A model generated the notes under the pieces. The model was not told the origin of the DNA. It worked only from the letters and a program-made list of their open reading frames with translations, and searched no databases. Below, in pieces: positions 5,163-51,925 of a stretch of DNA of 64,000 bases. The DNA is taken from NCBI GenBank assembly GCA_030694905.1, contig JAUYTY010000211.1, positions 3,652-67,651 on the forward strand, given 5' to 3'. How positions within the stretch are numbered: the stretch's first letter is position 1; each line of letters begins with the position of its first letter. A program made the translations under genes and the position numbers. This DNA comes from Eubacteriales bacterium. Lineage in GTDB: Bacteria > Bacillota > Clostridia > Tissierellales > Dethiosulfatibacteraceae.

Positions 5163-5175
5163 GTTTTCCTCCTGT

Positions 5176-5565
5176 CTACTCAAGATTTTCTATAAATATC
5201 GCGCTGGTCGGACAAACTGCGGCGCATTTTCCACAGGCAATGCATTTGCTTGGTTTTCTCTCACCTGTGAAGTAATGGATGGACAATGTGTCGCAAAAGC
5301 CAACGCAGGCATAACATTCTACGCATTTTTTTCTATTCAATGTTATGACGCCGTTTTTCGATATTGTCAAGGCTTGTGTGGGACATATGGTTGTACAATA
5401 ACCACATTGATTGCATACGTTAATATCGAATTTATCATTAGTGCTTTCTGTTATTCTGATAACCGATTTGTCTCCTGTTTCATCCTTGTAATAGGTTGTC
5501 GCGCATTCTACCATGCATTTTTTACAACCGATACAAAGCGCTTCATTCTTACTTAATACTTTCAT
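5176..5565 (-). CDS. Poly-[4Fe-4S] ferredoxin (four Cys-cluster motifs)
   Basis: 129 aa with CIGCKKCMVEC, CNQCGYCTTICP, CVECYACVGFC and CIACGKCAAVCP. It lies immediately upstream of the AOR gene. Confidence 0.85.
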   Translation of the reverse strand: MKVLSKNEALCIGCKKCMVECATTYYKDETGDKSVIRITESTNDKFDINVCNQCGYCTTICPTQALTISKNGVITLNRKKCVECYACVGFCDTLSIHYFTGERKPSKCIACGKCAAVCPTSAIFIENLE

Positions 5566-22193: not shown

Positions 22194-23369
22194 CTAAGCA
22201 CCCATCATATCCCTAACCTGAGCCACGTCCTTGTCGCCTCTGCCTGATAAGTTGACAATAATAATTTGATCCTTTTCTGTTTGTTTAGCCAGCTTCATGG
22301 CATGTGCTACGGCATGTGCGCTTTCAAGAGCCGGTATGATTCCCTCAACCTTAGATAGTTCATAGAATGCTTCCAGCGCCTCGTCATCTGTCACTGATGT
22401 ATATTGTCCCCTTCCGCTCTCATTGTAGAATGAGTGCTCAGGTCCAACCCCAGGATAATCCAAACCGGCAGCGATTGAATGTACCGGCAATGGTTCACCG
22501 TTTTTATCCTGTAGGGTATAGCATTTGAAGCCGTGAATGATTCCCGGAGATCCAAGGGTGATGGATGCCGCGTGATCCGGTGTGTCCAATCCCTTTCCCG
22601 CAGGCTCGACGCCCACTATTTTCACGCCTTTGTCTTCATAGAATGGGTGAAACAATCCAATGGCATTGCTGCCGCCACCGACACATGCCACCAAATAATC
22701 AGGCAGTCTGCCTTCCTGTTCCAATATCTGAGCCCTCGCTTCTATTCCGATGATACTTTGAAACTCTCTAACCATAACCGGGTAGGGATGAGGACCGACT
22801 GCAGATCCCAGCAGATAATAAGTATCATCGGCGTGTTGCACAAAGTCCATAAGTGCTGCGTCCACAGCATCCTTGAGTGTTTTCGTTCCTGTGGTGACAG
22901 GAACAACCTCGGCTCCCAACAGATTCATCCTGAATACATTCAGCTCCTGTCTTTTTGTATCGATTTCTCCCATGTAGATGATGCATTCCATACCGAACAT
23001 GGCACAGACAGTAGCTGTCGCCACGCCGTGCTGGCCTGCTCCAGTCTCAGCGATAATCCTTTTCTTGCCCATTCTTTTAGCCAGCAGCACCTGGCCGATT
23101 GTGTTGTTGATCTTATGTGCCCCTGTGTGGTTCAAGTCTTCTCGTTTCAAATAGATCTTTGCACCGCCGATCTTATCTGACAACCTCTCTGCAAAATAAA
23201 GCGGATTGGGCCTTCCAGTGTATTGTCTGTGGTAGTACATAAGTTCCTCTTTAAACTCAGGCTCTTCTATATAGCGATAGAAGTTGTCTGCCACCTCATC
23301 CAAAACCGCCTTCAAAACCTCTGGTACATACGTACCACCAAATTGACCAAAAAACTCTTTTCTTTCCAT
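22194..23369 (-). CDS. trpB: Tryptophan synthase beta chain
   Basis: 391 aa. [17 protein letters not shown] (PLP lysine) and GGGSNAIG motifs. Confidence 0.95.
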
Positions 23370-23414: not shown

Positions 23415-23690
23415 TTAAAAAATCCCCTATCCATAGAAACTATGGATAGAGGACGAATAATCGCGGTGCCACCTCTTTTAATCTTATAAAAAGATTATCT
23501 CTTTCAGATACGGGAAAATTCCGATATCCTATCTCTGTAACGGGAGAATCCCGGGCTTTCCTACTGTTACTTCAGAAGCCGCTCATAAGTCCATTCAATT
23601 ATTCTCGAACCATCGGATTTCCACCAGTACCGACTCTCTATCAATTCTCCGAACAATCTACTACTCTTACTCAACGCTTTTTGTTTGATT
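23415..23690 (-). promoter_or_regulatory. T-box riboswitch leader, tryptophan-specific (specifier UGG)
   Basis: Read on the minus strand. AGAGA box, GAAUGGA specifier loop (UGG = rc of 23591..23593), T-box sequence AGAGGTGGCACCGCG (rc of about 23461..23476). Terminator CCTCTATCCATAG-TTT-CTATGGATAGGGG plus TTTTTT at 23417..23453. Confidence 0.9.
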
Positions 23691-30385: not shown

Positions 30386-30415
30386 CTTGACATACCCCCA
30401 TGGGGTATGTTATAT
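30386..30415 (+). promoter_or_regulatory. Promoter of the ccdA operon, with an embedded 9-3-9 palindrome ACATACCCC-CAT-GGGGTATGT
   Basis: TTGACA (30386..30391) and TTATAT/TATATT (about 30409..30415). A perfect inverted repeat at 30389..30409 fills the spacer. Confidence 0.6.
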
Positions 30416-30437
30416 TTTTAAGAAGGATGGTGACCAT

Positions 30438-31124
30438 ATGACAGATGTATCTTTAATAATAGCATTCTGGGCAGGTATTGTATCATTTTTTTCGCCTTGC
30501 ATCATACCAATGATTCCTGCTTATCTATCATTTATTTCAGGATCTATTTCCGGTGAAAAGCATATGTCATGGCTTAAACCATTTTATCGGACCACTGGAT
30601 TCATTCTTGGATTCAGCATTGTCTTCGTTTTATTGGGTGCTTCCGCAACAACTATTGGCAGGTTTTTATCGTTTAATTTCCTGGTCTTTAGACGAATCAG
30701 CGGTATTGTTATCATCCTATTTGGCCTCTTCATGCTAGATATCCTGAAGATTGATTTTTTAAGAAGAGAAAAAAGACTGAAGGTTCCAAGAATTGTAGAC
30801 AGTTATTTTGGTTCGATTCTTCTAGGAATTGCATTTGGCGCTGGATGGACACCATGTATTGGCGCTATACTGGGATCGATTCTAGTATTTGCAGGTACCC
30901 AACAGACATTAGGCCAAGGCGTGATATTGCTTGTAGCGTATTCAGCAGGTTTATCCGTCCCATTCCTTACAGCCTCATTGTTTATAGGAAAGTTCACAAG
31001 TCATTTGGAGAAAATTGAAAAATTTTCTGGTGTATTGAATAAAATCGGCGGTATCATGCTCATTGTATTAGGCGTATTGATCTATACCAATAGATTGGTC
31101 TCTCTAATCGGATACTTATTATAG
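30438..31124 (+). CDS. ccdA: Cytochrome c biogenesis / thiol-disulfide electron transporter CcdA (DsbD family)
   Basis: Start at MTDVSLIIAFWAG. SPC...P motifs (FFSPCIIPMIPAY; GWTPCIG). Six predicted TM segments. Confidence 0.85.
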   Translation: MTDVSLIIAFWAGIVSFFSPCIIPMIPAYLSFISGSISGEKHMSWLKPFYRTTGFILGFSIVFVLLGASATTIGRFLSFNFLVFRRISGIVIILFGLFMLDILKIDFLRREKRLKVPRIVDSYFGSILLGIAFGAGWTPCIGAILGSILVFAGTQQTLGQGVILLVAYSAGLSVPFLTASLFIGKFTSHLEKIEKFSGVLNKIGGIMLIVLGVLIYTNRLVSLIGYLL

Positions 31125-31135
31125 GTGGTGAAAAA

Positions 31136-31717
31136 ATGAAAAAAAGAAACAAACTGATTTTTTTAATATTGATTCTTATATTGTCGTTGGCGCTTGCATC
31201 GTGCACAACCCCGTCGCCTGCCAATACAACGGCTCCATCACCATCAACCAGCGGAGCGACAAGCGAAGAATCAGAAACAGAGGAACCGGTAAGAGAAGTC
31301 GTTTACGCTCCCGAATTTGAATTGGAGGATCTGGACGGCAATATAGTCAGACTGGTTGATCTCAAGGGGAAAAATATTCTGGTGAACTTCTGGGCCACAT
31401 GGTGTCCCTTCTGCGTAGATGAAATGCCGGATCTGCAATTGCTTTATGAAAAGTACAAAGATGATGACTTTATCGTTTTGGCAATCAATGTTCAGGAAAG
31501 TGCGGAAAAAGCCAGGGGCTACTTGGAAGAAGCCGGTATTGAACTTCCCGTCTTATTGGATAAGGATTCCAGAATTGCGGCATTATATGGTGCCAATTCC
31601 ATTCCTTTGACAATAGCTGTCAACAAAGACGGTGTCGCAGTAACAGGATACAGAGGAAAATTGACCTTTGAACAGATGGAAACCATGTATAACATGCTAG
31701 TGGATAGCAATAACTAA
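31136..31717 (+). CDS. TlpA/ResA-like thioredoxin-fold thiol-disulfide oxidoreductase, lipoprotein
   Basis: Lipobox LALASC. Active site WATWCPFC. Confidence 0.85.
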   Translation: MKKRNKLIFLILILILSLALASCTTPSPANTTAPSPSTSGATSEESETEEPVREVVYAPEFELEDLDGNIVRLVDLKGKNILVNFWATWCPFCVDEMPDLQLLYEKYKDDDFIVLAINVQESAEKARGYLEEAGIELPVLLDKDSRIAALYGANSIPLTIAVNKDGVAVTGYRGKLTFEQMETMYNMLVDSNN

Positions 31718-31731
31718 GGAGGAGATTTATA

Positions 31732-32031
31732 ATGAATTTAAAGGTGTCACAGGAAGCAGTAGATGCTTTGAAAGCAGTACTTAAAGAAAAAGAAGAAACT
31801 ACCAAATCAGTTCGTGTCAATATCGCAGGTTTTGGCTGAGGCGGCCCTAGATTAGGGCTTGTTCTGGACGAACAAAAAGAAACTGATAAAGTATTTGAAC
31901 AGGATGGCTTGAACTTCCTTGTGGGAGAAGAGCTGATGAGTTACCCTGGTTTTACCGTTGATTATACCAGTTCATTCCTGAGAAAAGGATTTACTGTGGA
32001 TGTCATGGGTTATGCCGGTGGCAGATGCTAG
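31732..32031 (+). CDS. HesB/IscA-like small protein with an in-frame UGA (candidate selenocysteine at codon 36), 99 aa
   Basis: GGAGG RBS, then ATG at 31732. The frame reads ...SVRVNIAGFG-TGA-GGPRLGLVLDEQKETDKVFEQDGLNFLV...GGRC and ends at TAG 32029..32031. TGA at 31837..31839 occupies the position of the first Cys of the HesB/IscA motif. Two hairpins follow the TGA. Confidence 0.65.
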
Positions 32032-32050
32032 TTATTTAAGCAAATATTTA

Positions 32051-32080
32051 GGGCTCTGAATTTCAGAGCCCTTTTATTTT
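32051..32080. terminator. Bidirectional Rho-independent terminator
   Basis: GGGCTCTG-AATTT-CAGAGCCC followed by TTTTATTTT. It lies between convergent genes. Confidence 0.8.
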
Positions 32081-32085
32081 GCTAT

Positions 32086-35502: not shown

Positions 35503-37002
35503 TCAGACGATGATCATCTTGAGCTTGAAGGCGTTTTCGAAGTCGTTCTCCAATGTTCGCAGATAGGCGATCTCCAATGAAATGTCATCGTAATTGATGG
35601 TCTTGATGATGACATATTTGTCGACACACCTACACATGATATCCTTGACCTTCGAAGACAAGCCTCTGTCCAGTCCTTCTGCCAGCTTCATAAGAATGCT
35701 GAGCCTGTCTACTGTTTGGAGCTCTTCTTTTGTCAATAATTTGGTGTACATGTCTAGGCTGTTCTTCAGCTTGCTGTCGGTATGGTTGCCTGCCACTATG
35801 GCGGACATGAGCTGTTTTTTGTGGCTGATGCCGCTGAGAAGTGAATTGAGCATGATGTAGAATGTGTGCTCGTGATGATTCTTGTAGTCTAGCAGCTTAC
35901 CGACGTCATGTAGCATACTGGCTGTGTATATGATTTCATCCACGTCTTCTTTAATCAGGTGAATCTCCTGGAGCTCTGCAAAAAGCTTGCGAAATAGAAA
36001 CAATACCTGTGAGGCATGGCCATGGTCTATGTTATATACCTTTAACATATTTTCCACTGATAGTTCCAAGGGATTTGCCGTCACATTGCCTATGCCATAG
36101 CCCATCTTCTCGTAGAGAAGACCCTCTCTCAAACCATCCCTGCTGATGATGAGGCCGTCGCTGTCCAGATAATCCACCAGTTGTCTGACTGCACCACACG
36201 AACCCACAAATATGTCAGCTCTGTCCTTTCCCAGCCCGTTTATACCGCATCTTTCCTTAAAGCTGAAGGTCGACACGGCTTTGTATATATCATCCAGCTC
36301 CTGTGGCTTGACCACATAGTTGTGTATAGCGCTTAGAGGATAGTCGGCCTTTCGCTTTTGTATCTTTCCAATCTCCCTGATTGTTCCGCCAATTCCCACC
36401 AGTGGCAGTTTTTTAGCTTCCTTCAGCCAACCAAGACTTTTGTATTGATCAGTTAGAAACTTCTCAAGTTTTTTGATGTCTTTGTCATCCGGCTTGTCTT
36501 TAAGATTAAACTTTTCTGCCAAATCGACGGCCCCGAATGGCAAGCTGATGCTCTCAGTTAATTGTCTGCCAAATATTAGTCCCAGTTCAGTAGAACCTCC
36601 ACCTATATCCATAAACAGATAGTCATTTAGGCTGATGGAATTGATGGATCCCACGTAGCCGTATTCGGCCTCCATCTCTCCAGTAAGCAGCTCAACAGTT
36701 ATATCAATATCTCTTTTAGCATTCTGTATGAAGACGTCTCTGTTGTTGGCCTTTCTCAATGCGGCCGTACCCACAACCCTGATTTCCTCACAACCGCTCA
36801 GCCTGCAGTAGTTGACAAGCATTTTCAATGTCTTTAATCCATAAGCCATTTTTTCCTCATTCAGCATGCTGTCGCTGTCCAAACCTTCCGAAAGCCTCAC
36901 GCCTTCCTTGAAGCCGTCAACGATAAAGTAAGAGTCGTTCTTGATTTCAGCAATGATCAATCTGAATGTGTTTGACCCTATATCTATTATTCCATATTTC
37001 AT
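35503..37002 (-). CDS. ppx: Exopolyphosphatase (Ppx/GppA family) with an HD domain
   Basis: 499 aa. Canonical DIGSNTFRL, GTAALR, DIGGGSTE and LHDVGK motifs. The start overlaps the ppk stop (ATGA). Confidence 0.85.
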   Translation of the reverse strand: MKYGIIDIGSNTFRLIIAEIKNDSYFIVDGFKEGVRLSEGLDSDSMLNEEKMAYGLKTLKMLVNYCRLSGCEEIRVVGTAALRKANNRDVFIQNAKRDIDITVELLTGEMEAEYGYVGSINSISLNDYLFMDIGGGSTELGLIFGRQLTESISLPFGAVDLAEKFNLKDKPDDKDIKKLEKFLTDQYKSLGWLKEAKKLPLVGIGGTIREIGKIQKRKADYPLSAIHNYVVKPQELDDIYKAVSTFSFKERCGINGLGKDRADIFVGSCGAVRQLVDYLDSDGLIISRDGLREGLLYEKMGYGIGNVTANPLELSVENMLKVYNIDHGHASQVLFLFRKLFAELQEIHLIKEDVDEIIYTASMLHDVGKLLDYKNHHEHTFYIMLNSLLSGISHKKQLMSAIVAGNHTDSKLKNSLDMYTKLLTKEELQTVDRLSILMKLAEGLDRGLSSKVKDIMCRCVDKYVIIKTINYDDISLEIAYLRTLENDFENAFKLKMIIV

Positions 37003-39077
37003 AATCCTATCATATCCTTTTTGGCTTTTTTGATAGCTTCCGTTGCCTTATGATGCATCAGCATCTGCGCGTTGACAGGTTCCTTGCCTCTTCTGTCCAC
37101 GTCCTTATAGGTTCCATCTTCCAATTGTATCCTTGTTTTCTCAGTGTCTGCCAGCAAGATGTCCAGGAAATCGAGAAGTTTTCTTTTAATTTGTGGTTCC
37201 TCGACAGGAAATAGGATTTCTATTCTTCTGTCCAGGTTTCTCTCCATCCAATCCGCACTGGATAGAAACAGATCATCATCCCCACTGTTATAGAAATAGT
37301 AGATACGGCTGTGCTCCAGAAATGTTCCGACTATGCTTCTGACAGTAATGTTTTCGCTAAGGTCCATCACTTGTGACTTCAATCCGCACATGCCTCTGAT
37401 GATCAACTCGATTTTCACGCCTGCGCGGGATGCCTCATAGAGTTTGTCAATGATACCTTGATCTATCAAGGAGTTCAGCTTGGCGATGATATGTCCCTCA
37501 CCACCCGCTCTGACATTTCTGATTTCCCTGTCTATGTAGTATTCAAATCCGGCACGCAGATTGCCCGGTGCCACAAATATCTTCTTATAACGCAGCGCTT
37601 TTGTATAGCCGGTAATCATATTGAACATATTGGATACATCGATGCAAATATCCTCCCTGCAGGTGAACAGGCCTATGTCTTCATACAGTGTGGCTGTTGT
37701 GTCATTGTAGTTGCCTGTAGACAGATGCACGTAGCGGTGGATGCCGTCTTCTTCCCTTCTGACAATCAGGAGGGCTTTGCAATGAATCTTGAGTCCCGGC
37801 AATCCATAAACCACATGACATCCTGCCTGTTCAAGCTTTCTTGCCCACAGGATATTTTTTTCCTCTTCAAATCTGGCTTTCAGCTCCACCACCACGGTGA
37901 CCTGCTTGCCATTTTCAGCTGCCTTTATAAGCTTTGATATTATTGGGGAATTGTTGCTGACCCTGTATAGGGTCTGCTTGATTGCCAGAACCCTGGGGTC
38001 TTCAACTGCTTTTTCCACAAAATCCAACACTTTATAGAAGGATTCATAGGGATGATGCAACAATCTGTCTCTTTCTTTTATGGCTTCAAAAAGATCCTCC
38101 TGGCCGAAGAAATCTATGGAATCCTGGGGATTAGGCAACATATCCAACAGGTGTGCGAATTTTTTATTCTCTATAAATTCGAACCAGCAGGTAGGATCCA
38201 GCGGGCCATTGATTTCATATGTCTCCTCGTCCTTCACTTCCAGTTTTTTCTTGATGAATTTCCTTATTTTCTTATCGCCTTTGCTCTGTATCTCGAGCCT
38301 CACAGCAGCGCCCCATTTTCTTTTCTTGATGTTCTTTTCAATCTGAAGCAGCAGATCCTCGACATCGTCTCCATCAATTCCCAGGTCAGCGTCTCTTGTG
38401 ATCCTAAAAATCGATTTTTCCATGATTTCATAACCGGTAAAAAGCTTCTCCAGATTATTAAGAATCAACTCTTCCAGAAAGATGTATTCTGTTAAGCCTT
38501 CCTCGCTGTGAATCTCGACAAATCTTGGCAGCACAGTCGGAACTTTTACCACGGCGTAAAGCTCCTCCTCATCTGCCGATTTTAGCATGATGCCTATGTT
38601 GATGCCTTTTGTCTGAAGCAACGGAAATGGTCTGCCTGCGTCTATAGCGAGCGGGGTAAGGGCTGGAAAGCAAAATTCATCGAAGAAATCCCGTGCATAT
38701 GTGATTTGTCTTTCATTCAAGTCGCTGTATCTTTTAAATCGTATACCGGACTCCTCCAGCTTCGGCATCAATGATTTGTTCAAACAGCTATATATCTTTT
38801 TCATCATCAATTGGGTTTCCAGATAGATGGCGTTCAATTGCTCTTCAGGTGTTTTGCCGGAAATATCCTTCTTCCTGTATTTGGCTGCCATCTGCTGTTT
38901 TAGACCAGCCACCCTTACCATAAAGAACTCATCCAGATTGGAGGCTGCAATCGCCAGAAATTTTAGCCTGGTAAAGACTTTGCTGTCTTTGTCATAGGCC
39001 TCTTCCAGAACTCTATCATTGAACATGAGCCAGCTGAGCTCTCTGTTGATGTATTTTTGATCTTGATTGTGATCCAT
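36999..39077 (-). CDS. ppk: Polyphosphate kinase 1
   Basis: 692 aa. YINRELSWLMFNDRVLEEA N-terminus and two PLD-like HKD regions. Confidence 0.9.
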   Translation of the reverse strand: MDHNQDQKYINRELSWLMFNDRVLEEAYDKDSKVFTRLKFLAIAASNLDEFFMVRVAGLKQQMAAKYRKKDISGKTPEEQLNAIYLETQLMMKKIYSCLNKSLMPKLEESGIRFKRYSDLNERQITYARDFFDEFCFPALTPLAIDAGRPFPLLQTKGINIGIMLKSADEEELYAVVKVPTVLPRFVEIHSEEGLTEYIFLEELILNNLEKLFTGYEIMEKSIFRITRDADLGIDGDDVEDLLLQIEKNIKKRKWGAAVRLEIQSKGDKKIRKFIKKKLEVKDEETYEINGPLDPTCWFEFIENKKFAHLLDMLPNPQDSIDFFGQEDLFEAIKERDRLLHHPYESFYKVLDFVEKAVEDPRVLAIKQTLYRVSNNSPIISKLIKAAENGKQVTVVVELKARFEEEKNILWARKLEQAGCHVVYGLPGLKIHCKALLIVRREEDGIHRYVHLSTGNYNDTTATLYEDIGLFTCREDICIDVSNMFNMITGYTKALRYKKIFVAPGNLRAGFEYYIDREIRNVRAGGEGHIIAKLNSLIDQGIIDKLYEASRAGVKIELIIRGMCGLKSQVMDLSENITVRSIVGTFLEHSRIYYFYNSGDDDLFLSSADWMERNLDRRIEILFPVEEPQIKRKLLDFLDILLADTEKTRIQLEDGTYKDVDRRGKEPVNAQMLMHHKATEAIKKAKKDMIGL

Positions 39078-39080
39078 GGA

Positions 39081-40619
39081 TTAAATTCCCCTTTTTATCA
39101 CTAATTTCACTTCTATCCCAAATACTTCTTTGAAAAACTCACGATACTCGTTGAATTTGATCTGTTCGATATAGGTGTTGGTCTTGCTTTCAACCTCGAC
39201 TATCAGCAATCCTTTTTGTTGCTTGATACTGATGTTTTTGAACTTCTGGCTGTAGTTCTTATCCAGGGCATCTGCCATTCGCAGCACAGCCGATAGCTTT
39301 GAGACTGATATTTTCTCCACGGGGCTCAACTGCGCGTACTCCTCATCCTTTTCGCTCGGCAGCAAATAGGACTGATATTTGACAATGAGAGATATCATTT
39401 TTCTGTCCTCTTCGCTCAGGCCGATAATGTCTGTTTTTTTTATGATGTAGCTCGAATTCAAATAATGCTTATCTGGATTGATATACTTGCCGATATTGTG
39501 CAATATAACCGCAATTTTTAGGTAGATAATCTCTTTTTCCCTGAATCGGTTTGTTTTTGAAAGTTTTTTGAGTATGGCACTGGCCAACTCATCGACAAAC
39601 TCGATGTGTTTCCCATATGATTTGTACATCTGTGCCAGTTTCCTGGACGATTCAATGGCATAGCCATAAAACATGGTTCTTATTTCCTCGTATTGTTTTG
39701 GAAGCATCATCTCGTAAAACTCAATATCGAAGAAGAATATGTTTGGTACTACTATCGTTTCGGCTTCTGTCATTTCAAGGAGATTCTCTATAACTATGGT
39801 TGCAATGACCAGTTCATTGGCAAATTCCCGGTTTAGATTATATTTGATTGCGATGCTATCCGCATTCAACGCTACAATCTCATGGTAGAAATTTTCAAGC
39901 TTCGATTTTGATATGAAGCTGATTTCTCCCTTGTCCTCAGCCTCGCATAATATCTTGATGGTGTCAATGGTTCTACCTGTTACGATAAAATCCTTAATAT
40001 TGCTTTTTGGCAGAAAAGTCGGCAAGAAATTGAAATAGGTATTAAGCTGTTCTTTAACCATGATGTTCATTTTATCTGAATACTTGTCGGCATTTTTGGC
40101 TATCTCATAAAGCTTGATTGTACCAATGAGAATATTCTGCAAAAAATTGATGGACATGTCCTCATAAAATGCTATCCCCAAATTGCCACTTCCTATAAAG
40201 GTTATGATGGCATTGTTCTTCAGATAGTCCGCATCCTTTAACACCTTCAGATTGGACATAAAGATGATGTTCTTTAACTCGGAATCACTGATGACTTCAA
40301 GTACTATGCCTGTTTCCTGATAGAGTCTGTCCCTTATGTAGTATTTATTATCTGACTCCCTTATGGCCGTTGATGCAAAGAGAGCAATCCTCTCGGCACC
40401 GTACTCCAAAGAAAGCTGCTTGAAATTGGAAACAATCTCAACTATCCGGTCAACCTTTTCAGCTGATATCTTTCCTGTTTCAAAAGCCTCTTTGCCTATT
40501 GCTATGCTGTGACTCGCCCTTTCCACCATCTGCAGACTGTTTTTTTTGATCTGCTTGATGGTCACGGTGATTTCGGTAGACCCTATGTAAATGATTGATC
40601 CTATTTTCACACTGCTCAT
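39081..40619 (-). CDS. Ppx/GppA-like paralog with degenerate catalytic motifs
   Basis: 512 aa. It aligns by eye to Ppx/GppA, but has IYIGSTE in place of DIGSN, FIGSGNLG in place of DIGGGSTE, and LHNIGK in place of LHD.GK. Confidence 0.65.
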   Translation of the reverse strand: MSSVKIGSIIYIGSTEITVTIKQIKKNSLQMVERASHSIAIGKEAFETGKISAEKVDRIVEIVSNFKQLSLEYGAERIALFASTAIRESDNKYYIRDRLYQETGIVLEVISDSELKNIIFMSNLKVLKDADYLKNNAIITFIGSGNLGIAFYEDMSINFLQNILIGTIKLYEIAKNADKYSDKMNIMVKEQLNTYFNFLPTFLPKSNIKDFIVTGRTIDTIKILCEAEDKGEISFISKSKLENFYHEIVALNADSIAIKYNLNREFANELVIATIVIENLLEMTEAETIVVPNIFFFDIEFYEMMLPKQYEEIRTMFYGYAIESSRKLAQMYKSYGKHIEFVDELASAILKKLSKTNRFREKEIIYLKIAVILHNIGKYINPDKHYLNSSYIIKKTDIIGLSEEDRKMISLIVKYQSYLLPSEKDEEYAQLSPVEKISVSKLSAVLRMADALDKNYSQKFKNISIKQQKGLLIVEVESKTNTYIEQIKFNEYREFFKEVFGIEVKLVIKRGI

Positions 40620-47748: not shown

Positions 47749-48846
47749 CTAATCAAATAGTCTCATCAGATCGCCATATCCCTCTTTTTCCATGTCCTCA
47801 TAAGCGATAAACTTCAGGGATGCGCCATTGATGCAGTATCTCAGTCCACCCAGCTCCTTAGGACCGTCTTCGAAAAGATGGCCCAGATGGGAGTCTCCTA
47901 CCCTGCTTCTGACCTCTGTCCTGATCATGTTGAATGTTGTATCCTTTTCATACTCAATGACTTCCGCCTCGATTGGTTTCGCGAAACTTGGCCATCCGCA
48001 ATCGGAGTCAAACTTGTCCAAAGATGTGAACAGTGGCTCTCCAGTGACGATATCCACATAAATTCCTTTTCCATTGAAGTTCCAATACTCATGGGTAAAA
48101 GGCCTCTCGGTGGCTGCATTTTGGGTAACCTGGTACTCCAAATCTGTCAGGTTTTGCTTGATGATTTCATCTTCCGGCTTGATGTATTTATCAGGATCTA
48201 TGATAATATCATCCGCCAGATTCAGATCGATGTGGCAGTAACCGTTTGGATTCTTTTTGAGATAGTCCTGGTGATACTCCTCTGCTAGATAGTAGTGTCT
48301 CAATGGTTCCACTTGAACCACTATGGGCTTGGTGTAATTGACTTGCTCGTCGGCGATGATTTTGTTGATGACAGCCAATTGGGCCTCATCTGTGTAGTAG
48401 ATGCCTGTCCTGTACTGAGTGCCCACGTCATTGCCCTGCTTGTTGACACTGGTGGGATCGATGACTCTGAAATAGTACAGCAGCAATGTCCTCAAGTCCA
48501 CTACCTCTGAATCATATCTAACATGTACCGTTTCGGCATGGCCGGTATTCTTGTAAAGAACGTCTTCATACTTGGGGTTTTCTGTCGTTCCGTTTGCATA
48601 GCCGGAAGTCACATCAAACACGCCTGGCAGCCTGTCCATGTATTCCTCCAAACCCCAGAAGCATCCTCCCGCTAGGTGGATTTCTTTCATCACGATTTCA
48701 CTTTCCTCCTTTGTTTGTTTTACTGTCACGGCTGTATTCTCATTGTTGGTTGTTTCCTGCTTTTTATTGGCATTTATATATTTTGGAATCAAAGCTAATC
48801 CAATCACTCCTAAAACCACAGCCAGTATAATCCCTTTACTTGGCAT
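47749..48846 (-). CDS. msrAB: Membrane-anchored bifunctional methionine sulfoxide reductase MsrA-MsrB
   Basis: 365 aa. N-terminal TM helix, MsrA GGCFWG motif and Msr[10 protein letters not shown] motif. Confidence 0.9.
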
Positions 48847-48938: not shown

Positions 48939-49706
48939 TTAACAATAAGCGGAGATTTCTTTTTTATATGCCAAATACTTTTCCGAGTGCATGATAGACT
49001 TGTTCCTAGGTCTGTCAAAGTCAATCTTCAATTCATGCAGGACATGTCCAGGTCTTTCGCTTAAAACGTAAATACGGTCAGATAAAAATATAGCCTCATC
49101 AACGTCATGGGTAATAAACAGCACCGACTTCTGATAGGTTTGCCAGATATTCAGAAGCCACTCCTGCATTCCACCCCTGGTCATGGCATCCAATGCGCCG
49201 AATGGCTCGTCTAGGAGCATGATATTGCTGTCTACCAGAAATGTTCTCAATAATGCCGCTCGCTGTCTCATCCCTCCGGAAAGCTGGTTGGGATAGGCCT
49301 GTTCAAACCCTGTCAGCCCGAACTCGTCTATGTGCTCTGAAGCCAATTTCTGACTTTTCTCTCTTGAAAAGCCTTTAAGCTCCAAAGGCAGTATGACGTT
49401 ATCCATGATCTTCCTCCAGGGCATCAGGAGATCCTTTTGCTGCATATAGCTTATGGTTTCTCTTGAGTCTTTTACCGGCACATCATTGATCAGGATTTCT
49501 CCCTGAAATGAACCCTCAATCTTTGTGATGAGACGAAATATGGTGCTTTTCCCGCAACCGCTTGGTCCGACGATTGATACGAACTCCTTGTCATTCAATG
49601 CAAGGCTCACATCATCCAGGGTATCAAGTCTCTTCCCCTGATCCATCCTATAGGTTTTGGATACATTTTTCAGAACAACCCTAGATGCCATGTTATCACA
49701 CCCCAT
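48939..49706 (-). CDS. thiZ: ABC transporter ATP-binding protein, NitT/TauT family (ThiZ-like)
   Basis: Walker A GPSGCGKST, signature SGGMRQR. An alternative start is MASRVV at 49691. Confidence 0.7.
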   Translation of the reverse strand: MGCDNMASRVVLKNVSKTYRMDQGKRLDTLDDVSLALNDKEFVSIVGPSGCGKSTIFRLITKIEGSFQGEILINDVPVKDSRETISYMQQKDLLMPWRKIMDNVILPLELKGFSREKSQKLASEHIDEFGLTGFEQAYPNQLSGGMRQRAALLRTFLVDSNIMLLDEPFGALDAMTRGGMQEWLLNIWQTYQKSVLFITHDVDEAIFLSDRIYVLSERPGHVLHELKIDFDRPRNKSIMHSEKYLAYKKEISAYC

Positions 49707-50689
49707 TATTGCAGAAAGTCGTTGGTAAATGCCTTCTTCGATTCAACCCTGTTGGTTATGAATCCGTTCTCAAAAAGCCAGTCCGTGTATCTGTCCCAAG
49801 TTTCTTCATTTTGATATCCCCAGTATTCTGCATCGTCAATGTATTTTGTTGACAGAAATACCTGACTGGCCTTGACCAGGTCAGCATTCAGCTCAGGCGC
49901 GCTGTTGAGAAAGATCAGTGCTGATTTTTCGGGATTTTCCACAGCAAATTCATAGCCCCTTGCCAGGGCTCTCATGAATCTCTCCACCAGATCCTTGTTC
50001 TCTGCGATAAGCTTTTCACTGGTGATGATGACAGGCGTGTAGTAGTCAAACACTTCAGCCTCATGGCCTAGATCTATGTAATTGACATCAAAGCCTTTAA
50101 GCCCTGCTTCGATGACAGACCAACCCTCATAGACCCAGGCAAAATCCACCTGACCCGTCTGGCTGGCTGCAAAGAAATCTATATCGCCAATAGTCACTAT
50201 CTCGACTAGAGAGATATCCGCACCATCCTGTTCCATGAGATAGGCAAGAGTCGCTATCTCTATGGGAGATCCCCATCCGCCGTATTTTTTACCCTCAAAG
50301 TCCTTGGGAGATAGAATTCCCTTTTCTTTGAGAGACATGAATCCTGAGGTGTTGTGCTGGATGACCGAAGCAACTGAGACTACAGGAATCCCTTCTGATC
50401 TGGCGAAGGTCACGCTCTCCTGGTAGCTCACCCCAAACTGGGCCGATCCTGATGCCACAAGCTGCTCGGCGGTGCTTTCACCTGGTTGTATAATCTCTAT
50501 TTCTATGCCTTCCTCTTGAAAATAACCTTTATCCTTGGCGATATAGACACCTGTATGATTGGTATTCGGAAACCAGTCCAATGTGAAGATTACCTTGTCG
50601 GGTTCACCTTCGGACGGTGTTTTAGCTTGGCATCCTGCCATTGTCAATAAAATTGTTGCTATCAGTATCAATGTCGCTATTTTTTTCAT
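49706..50689 (-). CDS. thiY: NMT1/THI5-like substrate-binding lipoprotein (ThiY-like pyrimidine-precursor binding protein)
   Basis: Start set to MKKIATLILIATILLTMAGC (lipobox). This ATG overlaps the permease stop (ATGA). The track's longer N-terminus lies inside the permease gene. Confidence 0.7.
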   Translation of the reverse strand: MKKIATLILIATILLTMAGCQAKTPSEGEPDKVIFTLDWFPNTNHTGVYIAKDKGYFQEEGIEIEIIQPGESTAEQLVASGSAQFGVSYQESVTFARSEGIPVVSVASVIQHNTSGFMSLKEKGILSPKDFEGKKYGGWGSPIEIATLAYLMEQDGADISLVEIVTIGDIDFFAASQTGQVDFAWVYEGWSVIEAGLKGFDVNYIDLGHEAEVFDYYTPVIITSEKLIAENKDLVERFMRALARGYEFAVENPEKSALIFLNSAPELNADLVKASQVFLSTKYIDDAEYWGYQNEETWDRYTDWLFENGFITNRVESKKAFTNDFLQ

Positions 50690-51474
50690 CTTAAGCTCCT
50701 TCTTTCGTTTGTCCACGGCATGGCTTTTCTGCCTATGGCATCTATTACGGCTACAAATATCAATGTTATGGCAATGATGAATATGATGACGGCAAACAGA
50801 GCCGGTGTTCTGTAGGATTTCATAACCCTTGTCATGAATATGCCCAAACCTTCCTGGGCGCCAACCCACTCAGAGACCACCGCACCCATGACGCTGTAAG
50901 TGGCTGCTATCCTCAAGCCTGCAAAAAACGATGGCATGGAAGCCGGTAGCTTGCACTTTAAGAAAATCTGTGATTCGCTGGCGTCCATGGTCTTCATCAA
51001 ATCAATCAGCTCAGGATCCACAGATGAAAGGCCTTCTGTCAGGCTGACCGCTATGGGAAAAAAGCAAACAAGCACCACAACTATTATCTTTGGTGTCAAA
51101 CCAAAGCCAAACCAGATCATCATCAGCGGTGCGATTGCCATGATCGGCACAGTCTGTGTGATGACCATCATGGGGTAAAGCAGCTCCTTTATGTATTGAT
51201 ACCTGTCCATAGCGATGGATAAAAACACACTCAGAAACAGCGCGATAGAAAAACCCGCCAGAACTTCAATCACTGTAATCCTGGCATGCATCAACAGAAG
51301 CGGGAACGAATCGATCAGCTCCAGCCAGATCGCATAAGGTGAAGGCAATATATAGTTCGGTGTTTCGAGTATGGCTGTCACAAACTGCCATAGCAAAAGG
51401 ATCCCCACATAAAACAGAGATATCGATGCCCTGTTGATAAGCCTTCTATTATCTGTACTTGTAGGTTTTTTCAT
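50686..51474 (-). CDS. thiX: ABC transporter permease, NitT/TauT family (ThiX-like)
   Basis: 262 aa, six TM segments, binding-protein-dependent permease signature region. Confidence 0.7.
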   Translation of the reverse strand: MKKPTSTDNRRLINRASISLFYVGILLLWQFVTAILETPNYILPSPYAIWLELIDSFPLLLMHARITVIEVLAGFSIALFLSVFLSIAMDRYQYIKELLYPMMVITQTVPIMAIAPLMMIWFGFGLTPKIIVVVLVCFFPIAVSLTEGLSSVDPELIDLMKTMDASESQIFLKCKLPASMPSFFAGLRIAATYSVMGAVVSEWVGAQEGLGIFMTRVMKSYRTPALFAVIIFIIAITLIFVAVIDAIGRKAMPWTNERRSLR

Positions 51475-51739
51475 CCATGGTCACACCTTTCGGAGAATAG
51501 TCTATCTTCACAAAGGACAATACCCTGACAGCGCCCTCATTGACGCATATTTCCTGAGCCTTTTCCACAATTTTCAGCAACTCGGGCAACTCACCCTCCA
51601 TTGTTGTCTCCATAGGGCCGACCTCATGCTTGACACCTGTGCTTTGGATATATTCGATTACCTTATCCACTACGGGATATATGTCTTCCACGTTTGGAAT
51701 TTTTGGAACGATCTGCAAACTCAGATTGATTGTTGGCAT
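51449..51739 (-). CDS. MTH1187/YkoF family thiamine-binding protein (DUF77)
   Basis: Start at MPTINLSLQIVP after GGAGGCTAAA. Small ACT-like fold protein. First gene behind the TPP riboswitch. Confidence 0.7.
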   Translation of the reverse strand: MPTINLSLQIVPKIPNVEDIYPVVDKVIEYIQSTGVKHEVGPMETTMEGELPELLKIVEKAQEICVNEGAVRVLSFVKIDYSPKGVTMDEKTYKYR

Positions 51740-51761
51740 TTTTAGCCTCCTTATCTTTAGA

Positions 51762-51791
51762 CAAAAAAACAACTACCGGTCTGGTAGTTGT
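51762..51791 (-). terminator. Expression-platform terminator of the TPP riboswitch
   Basis: Minus strand: CAACTACC-AGAC-GGTAGTTG followed by TTTTTTT. Confidence 0.75.
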
Positions 51792-51827
51792 CGTTGTAGG
51801 TATTTGGTTGTTTTGGTTTGTTGTTGA

Positions 51828-51918
51828 AAGAAGCTCCCTACGCTGGCATTATCCAGATCAGGTAAATGGTCAGAATAGTATCAATTCGATCTCAGCCAAT
51901 CCTTTGGCTCCCATGTCC
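51828..51918 (-). promoter_or_regulatory. TPP (THI-box) riboswitch aptamer
   Basis: Minus strand reads ...GGGAGCCAAAGGATTGGCTGAGATCG...ACCTGATCTGGATAATGCCAGCGTAGGGA. This contains the conserved CTGAGA and ACCTGATCTGGATAATGCCAGCG blocks. Confidence 0.9.
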
Positions 51919-51925
51919 TGATTGA

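What the first reader, a model, noticed from the sequence alone, without database searches (positions are those of the whole stretch)
31732..32031. Unannotated HesB/IscA-like gene with an in-frame UGA: candidate selenoprotein missed by the ORF track
A 370-nt region (31718..32085) appears empty in the ORF track. It nevertheless contains a GGAGG RBS, an ATG at 31732 and a single reading frame that stays open for 99 codons apart from one TGA at codon 36 (31837..31839).

The context is VRVNIAGFG-U-GGPRLGLVLDE. This matches the HesB/IscA-type motif, in which a Cys normally follows the Gly-rich turn. The protein ends in GGRC.

Two hairpins follow the UGA:
- GCCCUA-GAU-UAGGGC at 31844..31858.
- UUGUUC-UGGAC-GAACAA at 31859..31875. 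Its G-containing apical loop lies 26-30 nt after the UGA, compatible with a bacterial SECIS.

A strong terminator follows the TAG. HesB-like selenoproteins have been predicted computationally in anaerobes, but as far as I know they lack experimental characterisation. This one is embedded in an extracytoplasmic thiol-redox operon.
Basis: partly seen in the sequence, partly recalled or inferred. Interest (0 to 1): 0.6.

Follow-up and report, generated by a model that had tools for sequence, protein, structure and literature searches.

The report
Missed HesB-like selenoprotein gene, CsoR-controlled
The "empty" 370-base gap holds a real gene for a small IscA/HesB-like protein whose in-frame UGA very probably encodes selenocysteine; the protein family is already known, but here the gene sits behind a copper-sensor-type (CsoR) operator, which gives a testable clue to its unknown function.

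Summary
ATG 31732 to TAG 32031 is one 99-codon frame with a single TGA at codon 36. It encodes an IscA/HesB-fold protein (Pfam PF01521; AlphaFold model matches IscA/SufA, TM 0.70-0.78).

The TGA is conserved in more than 20 orthologues (45-93% identical) from 24 Clostridia/Tissierellia species. It aligns with the invariant first Cys of A-type carriers. dN/dS is well below 1 on both sides. TGA is an ordinary stop elsewhere in the window.

Its codons are frozen in all Sec forms. They drift in the Cys paralogues that sit next to Sec copies in two Hathewaya genomes. Hairpin 1 is not conserved.

HesB-like selenoproteins (TIGR01911, motif UxGP) have been known for about 20 years and were 75Se-labelled in Methanococcus. 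This is therefore a new member of a known kind, routinely mis-called as 35-aa or 59-aa fragments.

New here: the ccdA-resA-hesB(Sec) promoter carries a CsoR-family operator. The same operator also precedes stand-alone hesB(Sec) genes in Clostridium, which suggests a role in copper or persulfide stress.

The parts
30387..30416 (+). Sigma-70-type promoter of the operon (TTGACA, 18 nt spacer, TATATT with TG extension)
   Evidence: 11 of 12 matches. It is conserved in all relatives with the operon. The TTG at 30387, listed as the ORF start of ccdA, is in fact the -35 hexamer.
30390..30410 (.). CsoR-family (type 2) operator ACATACCCC-CAT-GGGGTATGT, i.e. TAC-X9-GTA flanking C/G tracts, overlapping the -35 box and spacer
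   Evidence: It is the only exact TACCCCNNNGGGGTA in the 64 kb. The arms are conserved and the centre varies in relatives. It matches the experimentally defined CsoR and CstR operators (PMC3902906; bioRxiv 2021.07.25.453692). Across phyla the same 21-mer flanks csoR, copZ and copA genes.
30435..31124 (+). ccdA (DsbD_TM family membrane thiol-disulfide electron transporter)
   Evidence: Pfam PF02683, 63.2 bits. The two Cys motifs FSPC and TPC are seen. The start is placed at ATG 30435, after the promoter.
31136..31717 (+). ResA/TlpA-like thioredoxin-fold lipoprotein (lipobox LASC, active site WCPFC)
   Evidence: AhpC-TSA/Redoxin/Thioredoxin hits; NF002854 ResA 119.8 bits, below its cutoff of 170. 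Sequence.
31718..31722 (+). Ribosome-binding site GGAGG of the selenoprotein gene
   Evidence: Read from the sequence. It lies 9 nt before the ATG and is conserved in relatives.
31732..32031 (+). hesB-like selenoprotein gene (99 aa plus TAG stop); Sec36 and the C-terminal Cys99 are the two invariant Sec/Cys positions
31837..31839 (+). In-frame UGA (codon 36), read as selenocysteine
   Evidence: TGA in 21 of 21 distinct Sec-form orthologues; TGT/TGC in the Hathewaya Cys paralogues; aligned with the invariant Cys of the canonical IscA motif GGGCSG.
31843..31859 (+). Hairpin 1 (GGCCCUA-GAU-UAGGGCU): local structure in the closest relatives only, probably not the SelB-binding element
   Evidence: -9.1 kcal/mol. 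It is absent from the RNAalifold consensus. Its sequence varies freely in more distant Sec forms. The loop lies only 11 nt after the UGA, below the 16-37 nt range of the bSECIS model.
31859..31875 (+). SECIS core: 6-bp stem UUGUUC/GAACAA with apical loop UGGAC; the loop starts 25 nt after the UGA
   Evidence: The codons CTT GTT CTG GAY GAA CAA AAA are fixed in 19-21 of 21 Sec forms, whereas other invariant Gly/Pro/Leu columns use 3-6 codons. It is the only element in the consensus structure, and the only changes are U-A to U-G. It is degraded in the Cys paralogues of the same genomes.
32050..32080 (+). Intrinsic terminator closing the ccdA-resA-hesB unit
   Evidence: a 10-pair stem with 6 G-C pairs, followed by TTTATTTT. 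It is conserved in relatives.

Best explanation
31732-32031 is a genuine, translated gene for a 99-residue cytoplasmic IscA/HesB-fold selenoprotein.

How the UGA is read:
- The UGA at codon 36 is recoded to selenocysteine.
- As the ribosome reaches it, the 6-bp hairpin UUGUUC-UGGAC-GAACAA (31859-31875) lies 25 nt downstream within the coding sequence.
- That hairpin presents its GG-containing apical loop to SelB-GTP-Sec-tRNA(Sec), which outcompetes release factor 2.
- Sec36 replaces the first ligand Cys of A-type Fe-S carriers. Together with the invariant C-terminal Cys99 on a flexible tail, it forms the protein's reactive or metal-binding site.

Expression:
- The gene is the last cistron of a ccdA-resA-hesB transcription unit.
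- The unit's promoter is overlapped by a CsoR-family operator, so the unit is probably repressed until Cu(I) inactivates the repressor. Per/polysulfide, acting through a CstR-type paralogue, is less likely.

Shown versus inferred:
- Shown: the frame, homology, fold, conservation of the TGA, Sec/Cys pairing, selection on both sides, RNA-level constraint on the hairpin, operon anatomy, and conservation and identity of the operator type.
- Inferred: actual Sec insertion by SelB, the regulator and its inducer, and the biochemical role.
- My best guess for the role is a Cu(I)-binding or Cu-resistant A-type-carrier-like protein that protects or repairs Fe-S/thiol chemistry under copper stress. I put this at about 0.45.
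For: Family and fold:
- Pfam Fe-S_biosyn 28.1 bits (cutoff 26.3). Best NCBIfam hits are the two selenoprotein-subfamily models NF038090 (75.3 bits) and TIGR01911 (49.7 bits).
- AF2 model pLDDT 86.9. Foldseek top hits are HI1723, IscA (1x0g, 1r94, 1s98) and SufA (2d2a), TM 0.70-0.78.

The TGA is conserved and coding:
- It is conserved in L001/L002/L003 (87-93% identical), in a 47%-identical Logan contig, and in 21 distinct Sec forms overall.
- The TGA+SECIS pattern occurs in 24 species genomes.
- U36 aligns with the invariant Cys of canonical IscA and with the Cys of tandem paralogues in two Hathewaya genomes.
- dN/dS is 0.02-0.33 downstream and 0.06-0.12 upstream of the TGA in close relatives.
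- TGA ends 14 of 50 long ORFs in the window. It is also the stop codon of this very gene in L001 and L024. The genetic code is therefore standard.
- No start codon is conserved after the TGA. The window has TTA where L001 has TTG.

SECIS:
- Frozen synonymous sites and depressed pS.
- It is the only element in the consensus fold.
- It meets the loop, stem, G-position and spacing criteria of the published bSECIS model (PMC13188914).

Operator:
- for presence and conservation.
- for the match to CsoR/CstR sites.
- Searches show the same 21-mer next to PF02583 regulators, HMA chaperones and Cu-ATPases across phyla.
- The operator also sits 28-39 nt before stand-alone hesB(Sec) genes in unrelated neighbourhoods.
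- E. coli IscA binds copper in vivo (PMC6495748).
Against: - selA, selB, selC and selD were not found in the 64-kb window.
- The source is a groundwater metagenome, so there is no direct expression or protein evidence.
- The protein scores below the curated cutoffs of both NCBIfam selenoprotein models: 75.3 against 85 and 49.7 against 66.35.
- Hairpin 2 alone is weak (-4.7 kcal/mol, against the model's -7.5 kcal/mol or lower). Its stem shows no compensatory double changes because it never varies, so the support is constraint rather than covariation.
- The peptide LGLVLDEQK is itself conserved, also in Cys forms, so part of the nucleotide conservation is protein-level.
- No CsoR-family gene lies in the window or near the Clostridium genes.
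- The operator cannot distinguish Cu-sensing CsoR from persulfide-sensing CstR.
- The function is inference only.
Confidence: 0.88

Rival explanations
1. Translation simply stops at the UGA. The locus is then a decaying pseudogene or encodes only a 35-aa peptide, as the Logan gene call has it, and the downstream frame is not translated.
For: Gene callers produce exactly this: a 35-aa product in L046. Sec machinery was not demonstrated for this genome.
Against: - The frame after the TGA stays open and under purifying selection in more than 20 orthologues down to 45% identity.
- The C-terminal Cys is invariant.
- The full-length sequence folds confidently as one IscA domain whose strands come from both sides of the TGA.
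- Cys-codon paralogues and homologues exist at the same column.
Confidence: 0.03
2. The UGA is read through, but not as selenocysteine. Possible routes are near-cognate Trp or Cys insertion, or a local or global reassignment of UGA, as suggested by the 'W' in the Logan protein P0004.
For: P0004 was called with TGA=W. Without selenium or Sec machinery, low-level Trp/Cys insertion at UGA is known in bacteria (general knowledge).
Against: - TGA is a normal stop for 14 of 50 long ORFs here, and for this very gene in L001 and L024.
- The position is the redox/metal-ligand Cys of the family, so Trp would be non-functional.
- A hairpin with the bSECIS geometry is kept only where the codon is TGA, and decays where it is TGT/TGC.
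- The family is an established selenoprotein family with 75Se evidence in one member.
Confidence: 0.05
3. There are two separate small genes: an N-terminal 35-aa peptide and an independently initiated 59-aa C-terminal protein, as annotated in GenBank for the relatives (P0002, P0003, 'hypothetical protein').
For: The public annotations DCG34_11225 and XD91_1441 are 59-aa proteins starting at the Leu codon after ...GGPR.
Against: - The supposed start is TTG in L001 but TTA, which is not a start codon, in the window. No RBS precedes it.
- The longest post-TGA ORF in the window is 40 aa.
- Neither piece alone makes an IscA fold.
Confidence: 0.02
4. On function only: the operator is bound by a persulfide-sensing CstR-type repressor rather than by Cu(I)-CsoR. 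The operon would then deal with reactive sulfur species. The Sec/Cys protein would act as a (seleno)persulfide carrier or reductase, and CcdA-ResA would repair persulfidated envelope thiols.
For: - The S. mitis cst operator ATACCCTTATGGGGTAT is nearly the same site.
- The IscA-like DsrR of sulfur oxidisers is among the fold matches (rank 10).
- The carriers are sulfidic-habitat anaerobes (organism names).
Against: Across phyla the identical 21-mer mostly flanks regulators with the Cu-type C-H-C signature, together with CopZ and CopA genes. No rhodanese, persulfide dioxygenase or CoA-persulfide reductase lies next to any hesB(Sec) gene examined.
Confidence: 0.3

Closest known systems
HesB-like selenoprotein family (TIGR01911 HesB_rel_seleno; motif UxGP; e.g. 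Methanococcus maripaludis MMJJ_08070, Alkaliphilus metalliredigens, Geobacter and Desulfovibrio members)
   Same: A small IscA/HesB-fold protein of about 100 aa. Sec sits at the first conserved Cys in a G-U-x-G-P turn, with a Cys-bearing C-terminal tail. Sec/Cys homologue pairs exist, and Cys forms keep remnant SECIS structures, as reported for Desulfitobacterium hafniense (PMC1794560; PMC13188914).
   Different: The window's protein scores 49.7 bits, below the TIGR01911 cutoff of 66.35. The Hathewaya relatives pass at 81.9 and 92.9. It ends in a single terminal Cys (GGRC) rather than a Cys/Ser/Gly-rich tail. I found no published link to ccdA-resA or to a CsoR-type operator.
NCBIfam NF038090 IscA_HesB_Se
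   Same: It is the best-scoring curated model for this protein (75.3 bits, E 3.7e-21, aligned end to end over residues 3-97 of 99) and for its close relatives.
   Different: All members of the window's clade score below the cutoff of 85 (52-80 bits). NCBI's pipeline would therefore not name them from this model. Public records in fact carry 59-aa 'hypothetical protein' fragments.
A-type Fe-S carriers IscA / SufA / ErpA
   Same: The same fold (TM 0.70-0.78 to 1x0g, 1r94, 1s98, 2d2a). The first ligand position is conserved. The ligand-bearing C-terminus is flexible (pLDDT below 50 for residues 97-99). E. coli IscA's Cys pocket binds Fe, and also Cu in vivo.
   Different: The canonical C-terminal C-G-C pair is replaced by one terminal Cys, and the first Cys by Sec. 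No isc/suf/nif genes are nearby. The gene sits in an envelope thiol-redox operon instead.
Bacterial SECIS consensus (bSECISearch model; E. coli fdhF prototype)
   Same: An in-frame stem-loop just after the UGA: a 5-nt apical loop with G at position 2 followed by G, a 6-bp stem, and 25 nt between the UGA and the loop (the criteria are quoted).
   Different: The conserved hairpin alone is only -4.7 kcal/mol. The -7.5 threshold is reached only when the non-conserved hairpin 1 is included. The stem sequence is invariant rather than covarying.
CsoR/CstR regulons (Streptomyces lividans CsoR type-2 operator; Streptococcus mitis cst operator)
   Same: A TAC-X9-GTA inverted repeat around C/G tracts that overlaps the promoter. 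The identical 21-mer is found next to csoR, copZ and copA in many phyla.
   Different: The regulated genes here are ccdA, resA and a selenoprotein rather than a Cu exporter. The regulator gene is not linked.
CcdA-thioredoxin-like envelope reducing systems (B. subtilis CcdA-ResA/StoA; pneumococcal CcdA-Etrx-MsrAB; Salmonella ScsB/ScsC copper-tolerance system). The comparison rests on my own knowledge of the literature.
   Same: A membrane CcdA/DsbD-type electron conduit plus an extracytoplasmic CxxC thioredoxin-fold lipoprotein. The Scs system is linked to copper stress.
   Different: None of those systems is known to me to include a cytoplasmic IscA-like selenoprotein as a third cistron.

Membership tests
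HesB-like selenoprotein family (literature sense; TIGR01911-type) | IscA/HesB (Fe-S_biosyn) domain and fold | tested here: met
   PF01521 28.1 bits against a cutoff of 26.3. AF2 pLDDT 86.9. Foldseek hits to IscA/SufA/HI1723 with TM 0.70-0.78, E about 1e-6.
HesB-like selenoprotein family (literature sense; TIGR01911-type) | In-frame TGA in the motif U-x-G-P, aligned with the family's conserved first Cys, with Cys-containing homologues at that column | tested here: met
   The motif is GFG-U-GGP. It aligns to the Cys of GGGCSG in canonical IscA homologues and to TGT/TGC in the Hathewaya paralogues. The UxGP motif is given in PMC13188914.
HesB-like selenoprotein family (literature sense; TIGR01911-type) | Conservation of the TGA and of coding potential on both sides across species | tested here: met
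   21 distinct Sec forms and 24 species. dN/dS is well below 1 upstream and downstream.
HesB-like selenoprotein family (literature sense; TIGR01911-type) | The host has the Sec-decoding trait (selA, selB, selC/tRNA-Sec, selD) | not testable with these tools
None of these genes is in the 64-kb window. No tRNA was found in 50 related loci.
NCBIfam models TIGR01911 / NF038090 | Score at or above the curated cutoff | tested here: not met
   TIGR01911 49.7 against 66.35; NF038090 75.3 against 85. Close relatives are also below both. The Hathewaya subclade passes TIGR01911. The protein is therefore filed under the literature family as an outlying subclade, not as a trusted-cutoff member of either model.
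Bacterial SECIS (bSECIS consensus model, PMC13188914 Fig. 2 legend) | Apical loop of 3-9 nt on an upper stem of 4-16 bp | tested here: met
   A 5-nt loop (UGGAC) and a 6-bp stem.
Bacterial SECIS (bSECIS consensus model, PMC13188914 Fig. 2 legend) | G in one of the first two loop positions, usually followed by G or U | tested here: met
   The loop is U-G-G-A-Y in all 21 Sec forms. It changes to U-A-G-A-U in both Cys paralogues.
Bacterial SECIS (bSECIS consensus model, PMC13188914 Fig. 2 legend) | [quoted passage not shown] | tested here: met
   25 nt lie between them (UGA ends at 31839, loop starts at 31865). For hairpin 1 the spacing is 11 nt, which fails.
Bacterial SECIS (bSECIS consensus model, PMC13188914 Fig. 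2 legend) | Minimum free energy of -7.5 kcal/mol or lower | tested here: inconclusive
   The conserved hairpin alone gives -4.7 to -5.4. The region from the UGA to +48 gives -8.3 to -17.0 in Sec forms and -13.5 in the window. The result depends on what is counted as the element.
Bacterial SECIS (bSECIS consensus model, PMC13188914 Fig. 2 legend) | Binding by SelB and dependence of read-through on the element | not testable with these tools
   This needs a reporter or binding experiment.
Canonical A-type Fe-S carrier (IscA/SufA/ErpA) | Three ligand cysteines, C-X(n)-C-G-C | tested here: not met
   The first position is Sec. The C-terminus has a single terminal Cys (GGRC) and no C-x-C. TIGR00049 scores 49.4 against 58.8, and the IscA/SufA/ErpA equivalogs are far below their cutoffs.
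CsoR-family-regulated promoter | Type-2 operator: 5'-TAC-X9-GTA-3' inverted repeat flanking C/G tracts, overlapping the promoter | tested here: met
   TAC-CCCCATGGG-GTA at 30393-30407 overlaps the -35 box and spacer. The consensus comes from PMC3902906. The arms are conserved and the centre is variable in 19 or more species.
CsoR-family-regulated promoter | A CsoR-family repressor (PF02583) in the genome that binds the site and is released by its inducer | not testable with these tools
   No PF02583 gene is in the window or next to the Clostridium hesB genes. The whole genome was not searchable. Elsewhere the same 21-mer flanks PF02583 genes: 15 of 50 hand-picked flanking ORFs.

The most novel reading that the evidence does not exclude
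In Clostridia/Tissierellia the HesB-like selenoprotein is a dedicated target of a CsoR-family repressor. The operator travels with the gene both in the ccdA-resA-hesB operon and in stand-alone copies.

The long-orphan HesB-like selenoprotein would then be a copper-stress (or reactive-sulfur-stress) protein rather than a housekeeping Fe-S assembly factor. For example, it could be a Sec/Cys Cu(I) buffer, or a copper-proof A-type carrier that works alongside an envelope thiol-repair pair.

The tandem Sec/Cys paralogues in Hathewaya would then be a selenium-dependent isoform pair.
Probability: 0.45. Interest if true: 0.6.

Novelty: new member of a known kind. Interest (0 to 1): 0.4.

Why it matters
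As a gene call, this corrects a systematic annotation error. The clade is recorded in public databases as 35-aa stubs, as 59-aa 'hypothetical proteins', or as a TGA=Trp artefact. It also falls just below the cutoffs of the two NCBIfam models that are meant to catch it.

Biologically, the HesB-like selenoprotein is one of the more common prokaryotic selenoprotein families, and its function has been unknown for about 20 years. A knockout in Methanococcus was reported (as an unpublished observation) not to impair nitrogen fixation.

Two findings turn 'function unknown' into a concrete and cheap experiment in cultured carriers:
- The gene is tied to a CsoR-type operator in two independent genomic contexts.
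- It is tied to a CcdA/ResA envelope-reducing pair in one of them.

The experiment is to test induction by copper or sulfide, repressor binding, and Cu(I) binding by the Sec/Cys site. The frozen SECIS, with adjacent Cys paralogues as an internal control, is also a clean natural example for studying SelB recognition in Firmicutes.

Tried and rejected
1. Own-genome search for selA/selB/selD (TIGR00474/5/6), and laying the genome in the Python box. I found no workable detour. The remaining tools need a close-relative query sequence for the sel genes, which I could not obtain. Collection scans return at most about 80-120 loci and cannot be aimed at the relevant MAGs.
2. tRNA scans of the window and of 50 related loci found nothing, which is uninformative.
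3. Rfam at gathering thresholds gave only a T-box and a TPP riboswitch in the window. No bacterial SECIS family was hit.
4. Other selenoprotein genes in the window. A scan for frames with one or two in-frame TGAs gave only antisense or overlapping artefacts apart from this gene.
5. Hairpin 1 as the SECIS: rejected. It is not conserved, its spacing is 11 nt, and it is absent from the consensus fold.
6. Code 4/25 reassignment: rejected.
7. Simple Sec-to-Cys conversion in Hathewaya. I revised this reading, because the Cys genes are tandem paralogues of Sec genes.
8. A linked regulator. The small ORFs near the Clostridium hesB genes are AbrB/MazE-type, not CsoR. There is no CsoR-like ORF in the window's gaps.
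9. Literature link between CsoR and HesB-like proteins: none found. One apparent hit was the author name 'Csordas'.
10. Covariation support for the SECIS stem cannot be obtained, because the stem never varies. I used synonymous-site constraint and the Cys-paralogue contrast instead.
Full report
**1. Observation**

- A GGAGG ribosome-binding site (31718-31722) lies 9 nt before ATG 31732.
- The frame runs 99 sense codons to TAG 32029-32031, with a single TGA at 31837-31839 (codon 36).
- The product reads MNLKVSQEAVDALKAVLKEKEETTKSVRVNIAGFG-U-GGPRLGLVLDEQ...GYAGGRC.
- Under table 11 nothing longer than a 40-aa TTG ORF exists on this strand between 31718 and 32085, so the gap in an ORF track is real.
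- Both hairpins fold as stated. Together they give -13.5 kcal/mol, z = -2.16 against shuffles.
- A strong intrinsic terminator follows at 32050-32072 plus a T-run.

**2. What the protein is**

- Pfam places it in Fe-S_biosyn (PF01521), at 28.1 bits against a cutoff of 26.3.
- Its two best NCBIfam hits are the models built for the selenoprotein branch of the family. NF038090 IscA_HesB_Se scores 75.3 bits (cutoff 85). TIGR01911 HesB_rel_seleno scores 49.7 bits (cutoff 66.35).
- An AlphaFold2 model built on a 29-sequence alignment is confident (pLDDT 86.9, pTM 0.75), except for the last three residues.
- Foldseek matches the model to HI1723, IscA (1x0g, 1r94, 1s98) and SufA (2d2a) with TM 0.70-0.78.
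- In an alignment with canonical Cys-type IscA homologues, U36 falls on the invariant Cys of the GGGCSG turn.
- The canonical C-terminal C-G-C is replaced by one invariant terminal Cys.

**3. Is the UGA really read?**

Relatives were found in species genomes, metagenomes and Logan assemblies. They give 21 distinct genes with TGA at this codon, 45-93% identical in protein. Cultured carriers include:
- Dethiosulfatibacter aminovorans
- Clostridium frigidicarnis
- C. hydrogeniformans
- C. collagenovorans
- C. cadaveris
- C. tepidiprofundi
- Hathewaya limosa

The exact TGA+hairpin pattern occurs in 24 species genomes, all Clostridia/Tissierellia.

The frame is open and conserved on both sides. In pairwise comparisons with close relatives, dN/dS is 0.06-0.12 upstream and 0.02-0.33 downstream of the TGA. 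The C-terminal Cys is invariant.

The alternatives fail:
- **Reassigned code.** TGA ends 14 of 50 long ORFs in the window. It is also the stop codon of this very gene in L001 (TGC-TGA-TGA) and L024. A code-4/25 reading is excluded.
- **Separate C-terminal gene.** GenBank annotates a 59-aa C-terminal 'hypothetical protein' in relatives (P0002, P0003). That call starts at a TTG which is TTA in the window, and it has no RBS.
- **Other gene calls.** The Logan call in the source run is the 35-aa stub. One Logan protein was called with TGA=W. These are gene-caller artefacts of a recoded UGA.

**4. The SECIS**

Comparison across Sec forms shows that the nucleotides CTT GTT CTG GAY GAA CAA AAA (codons 44-50) are essentially frozen.
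- The codon counts are 21/21, 21/21, 21/21, GAC or GAT, 20/21, 20/21 and 19/21.
- Other invariant Gly, Pro and Leu columns use 3-6 codons each.
- A 47%-identical, much more AT-rich homologue has the identical 24-mer.
- Synonymous divergence is depressed over this segment (pS 0.10-0.38, against 0.25-0.83 in the flanks).
- RNAalifold on 16 sequences retains only this element: a 6-bp stem UUGUUC/GAACAA with loop UGGAY. The only two variants are both U-A to U-G.

The best control comes from Hathewaya massiliensis and H. proteolytica. Each carries a Sec gene and, directly downstream, a Cys paralogue.
- The Sec copies keep the hairpin exactly.
- The Cys copies encode nearly the same peptide but read CTT GTA TTA GAT GAG AAA and CTT GTT CTA GAT GAG CAA.
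- Both lose the first loop G (UGGAU becomes UAGAU), and one also loses the stem.

Against the published bSECIS model (PMC13188914):

| Criterion | Model | Hairpin 2 |
|---|---|---|
| Apical loop | 3-9 nt | 5 nt, met |
| Upper stem | 4-16 bp | 6 bp, met |
| G in loop position 1 or 2 | G followed by G or U | position 2, followed by G, met |
| UGA-to-loop spacing | 16-37 nt | 25 nt, met |
| Free energy | -7.5 kcal/mol or lower | -4.7 alone, not met; -13.5 with its surroundings |

Hairpin 1 (31843-31859) is stable at -9.1 kcal/mol. However, it is present only in the nearest relatives, and its loop lies 11 nt from the UGA. It is not the conserved element.

**5. Known or new?**

'HesB-like protein' is a long-established prokaryotic selenoprotein family.
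- It had 11 bacterial members in a 2006 survey, which reported two Sec-to-Cys conversions in the family and showed a remnant SECIS-like structure in the Cys-containing Desulfitobacterium hafniense member (PMC1794560).
- It is listed with TIGR01911 and the motif UxGP in a 2026 review (PMC13188914).
- In Methanococcus maripaludis it was identified as a selenoprotein by mutagenesis and 75Se labelling. Its function is unclear, and a disruption mutant was reported (unpublished observation) not to be impaired in nitrogen fixation (PMC11097638).

The finding is therefore a new member of a known kind. The window's subclade scores below both NCBIfam cutoffs, whereas the Hathewaya subclade passes TIGR01911. 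That may contribute to these genes being left as fragments in public records.

**6. Context and regulation**

The gene is the last of three tightly spaced cistrons.
- ccdA (30435-31124, DsbD_TM).
- A ResA/TlpA-like thioredoxin-fold lipoprotein (31136-31717; lipobox LASC, active site WCPFC).
- hesB(Sec).
- The selenoprotein has no signal peptide.
- The block DAHP synthase - prephenate dehydrogenase - ccdA - resA - hesB(Sec) is syntenic down to 45% HesB identity. In D. aminovorans and one MAG, ccdA is missing but resA-hesB remains.

A near-consensus promoter (TTGACA-18-TATATT, 30387-30416) precedes the unit. It is overlapped by a perfect palindrome, ACATACCCC-CAT-GGGGTATGT (30390-30410).
- This is the only exact TACCCCNNNGGGGTA in the 64 kb.
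- The arms are conserved and the three central bases vary freely in every relative with the operon, including an independently retrieved set.
- In D. aminovorans the site sits directly before resA.

Stand-alone hesB(Sec) genes of five Clostridium species and two metagenome contigs lie in unrelated neighbourhoods (MgtE, DUF1836, LytR). Each carries exactly one such site, 28-39 nt before the start codon and just after a TTGACA/TATAAT promoter.
- In 433 kb of fetched DNA, all 19 strict matches lie in promoters that drive a hesB(Sec) unit.
- None occurs around canonical Cys-type IscA genes.

The site matches the experimentally defined CsoR type-2 operator (5'-TAC-X9-GTA-3', consensus ATATACCCCTNAGGGGTATAT; PMC3902906). 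It also matches the CstR operator of S. mitis (ATACCCTTATGGGGTAT).

My own estimate of the chance expectation, from 596 Gb and 18 specified bases, is about 17.
- By motif, the ORFs beside these sites are CsoR-like in 23 of 79 loci, HMA in 15 and thioredoxin in 7.
- By Pfam, of 50 flanking ORFs that I picked by eye, 15 are PF02583, 11 are HMA and 3 are P-type ATPases. A few are thioredoxin, glutaredoxin, a pyridine nucleotide-disulphide oxidoreductase (thioredoxin-reductase-like) or MsrA/B.
- Most of the regulators show the Cu(I)-type Cys-His-Cys signature.

The operon is therefore very probably under a CsoR-family repressor, more likely copper-sensing than persulfide-sensing. The regulator gene is not in the window and is not linked in Clostridium.

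**7. Mechanism proposed**

- **Shown:** gene, fold, recoding signals, operon and operator.
- **Inferred, recoding:** SelB-dependent Sec insertion at codon 36, guided by the 31859-31875 hairpin. I put the probability that this is a true selenoprotein gene at about 0.88.
- **Inferred, regulation:** derepression by Cu(I), about 0.6 given that a CsoR-family protein binds. Per/polysulfide is the alternative.
- **Inferred, function:** a role for the Sec36/Cys99 pair in binding Cu(I), or in keeping A-type-carrier or thiol chemistry working under copper stress. It would act alongside CcdA-ResA, which would re-reduce copper-oxidised envelope thiols.
- **Support for the function:** E. coli IscA's Cys pocket is a documented in-vivo copper target, and copper binding there blocks Fe-S assembly (Tan et al. 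2014 and 2017, as cited in PMC6495748).
- **Possible client:** an MsrA/MsrB fusion lies 16 kb away (47749-48846). It is a plausible client of the envelope pair but is not linked.

**8. Limits**

- The window contains none of these genes and no tRNA.
- The DNA comes from a groundwater metagenome run, and no RNA or protein data were available.
- The SECIS evidence is constraint, not covariation.
- The 50 flanking ORFs sent to Pfam were chosen by eye from 147 crude ORF calls. Those proportions are therefore illustrative, not a census.
- Functional statements beyond recoding are hypotheses.

Noticed in passing
window 30390-30410 (promoter 30387-30416): A perfect 9-3-9 palindrome, ACATACCCC-CAT-GGGGTATGT, overlaps the -35 box and spacer of the ccdA promoter. 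It is a CsoR-family type-2 operator. It is conserved with a variable centre in all relatives with the operon, and it also sits in front of stand-alone hesB(Sec) genes in Clostridium.
   Followed up: yes
window 30387-30434: The mechanical ORF start of ccdA (TTG 30387) is the -35 hexamer of its own promoter. The real start is ATG 30435 (MTDVSL...).
   Followed up: yes
L035 3396 and 4097; L036 3556 and 4097 (Hathewaya massiliensis, H. proteolytica): Tandem Sec-form and Cys-form hesB-like paralogues lie a few hundred bases apart. This may be a selenium-dependent isoform pair, like the Sec/Cys isogenes of Methanococcus. The Cys copies have lost the SECIS loop G.
   Followed up: partly
L001 3727-3732; L024 4298-4300: In these relatives the selenoprotein gene ends in TGA (TGA-TGA in L001). 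One mRNA therefore has a UGA read as Sec and a UGA read as stop about 190 nt apart, which shows how local the SECIS effect is.
   Followed up: no
L050, L057, L066, L081, L092, L109, L114 (Dehalococcoidia/Chloroflexia MAGs): The same 21-bp operator lies between a CsoR-family regulator (motif DDR-x-C-E-x-h-h-TQ) and a divergently transcribed thioredoxin (WCGPC). This recurrent regulator-thioredoxin divergon may be a thiol- or redox-sensing branch of the family.
   Followed up: no
L048 4929-5990 (Verrucomicrobiota MAG): The operator directly precedes a 337-aa ORF that is probably the one MsrA/MsrB (PMSR+SelR) protein in the tally; that tally does not name which ORF matched. Together with the Trx, Grx and thioredoxin-reductase-like hits, it suggests that CsoR-type regulons often include thiol/methionine repair genes.
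   Followed up: no
window 47749-48846 (-): An MsrA-MsrB fusion protein (365 aa) with a 55-residue N-terminal extension. It may be an extracytoplasmic client of the CcdA/ResA-like pair 16 kb away.
   Followed up: no
P0002, P0003 (GenBank DCG34_11225, XD91_1441); L046 1597-1704; P0004: Public records of this gene are all truncated or mistranslated. They appear as 59-aa 'hypothetical proteins', a 35-aa stub, or a full-length call made only by reading TGA as Trp.
   Followed up: yes
window 23446-23683 (-) and 22194-23369 (-): A T-box leader (Rfam RF00230, 119.6 bits) lies upstream of the ORF at 22194-23369, which an earlier scan note identifies as a lone trpB. I did not verify that gene identity.
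   Followed up: no
window 51817-51924 (-), 48939-51772 (-): A TPP riboswitch lies upstream of a thiamine-binding protein (PF01910) and an NMT1/THI5-type ABC uptake system.
   Followed up: no
window 35503-40619 (-): Polyphosphate kinase flanked by two Ppx/GppA phosphatase paralogues in one apparent operon.
   Followed up: no
window 2982-5565 (-): An aldehyde:ferredoxin oxidoreductase (AFOR, tungsten/molybdopterin type) next to a poly-ferredoxin, within a block of peptidases and an oligopeptide ABC transporter. This is consistent with an amino-acid-fermenting anaerobe.
   Followed up: no
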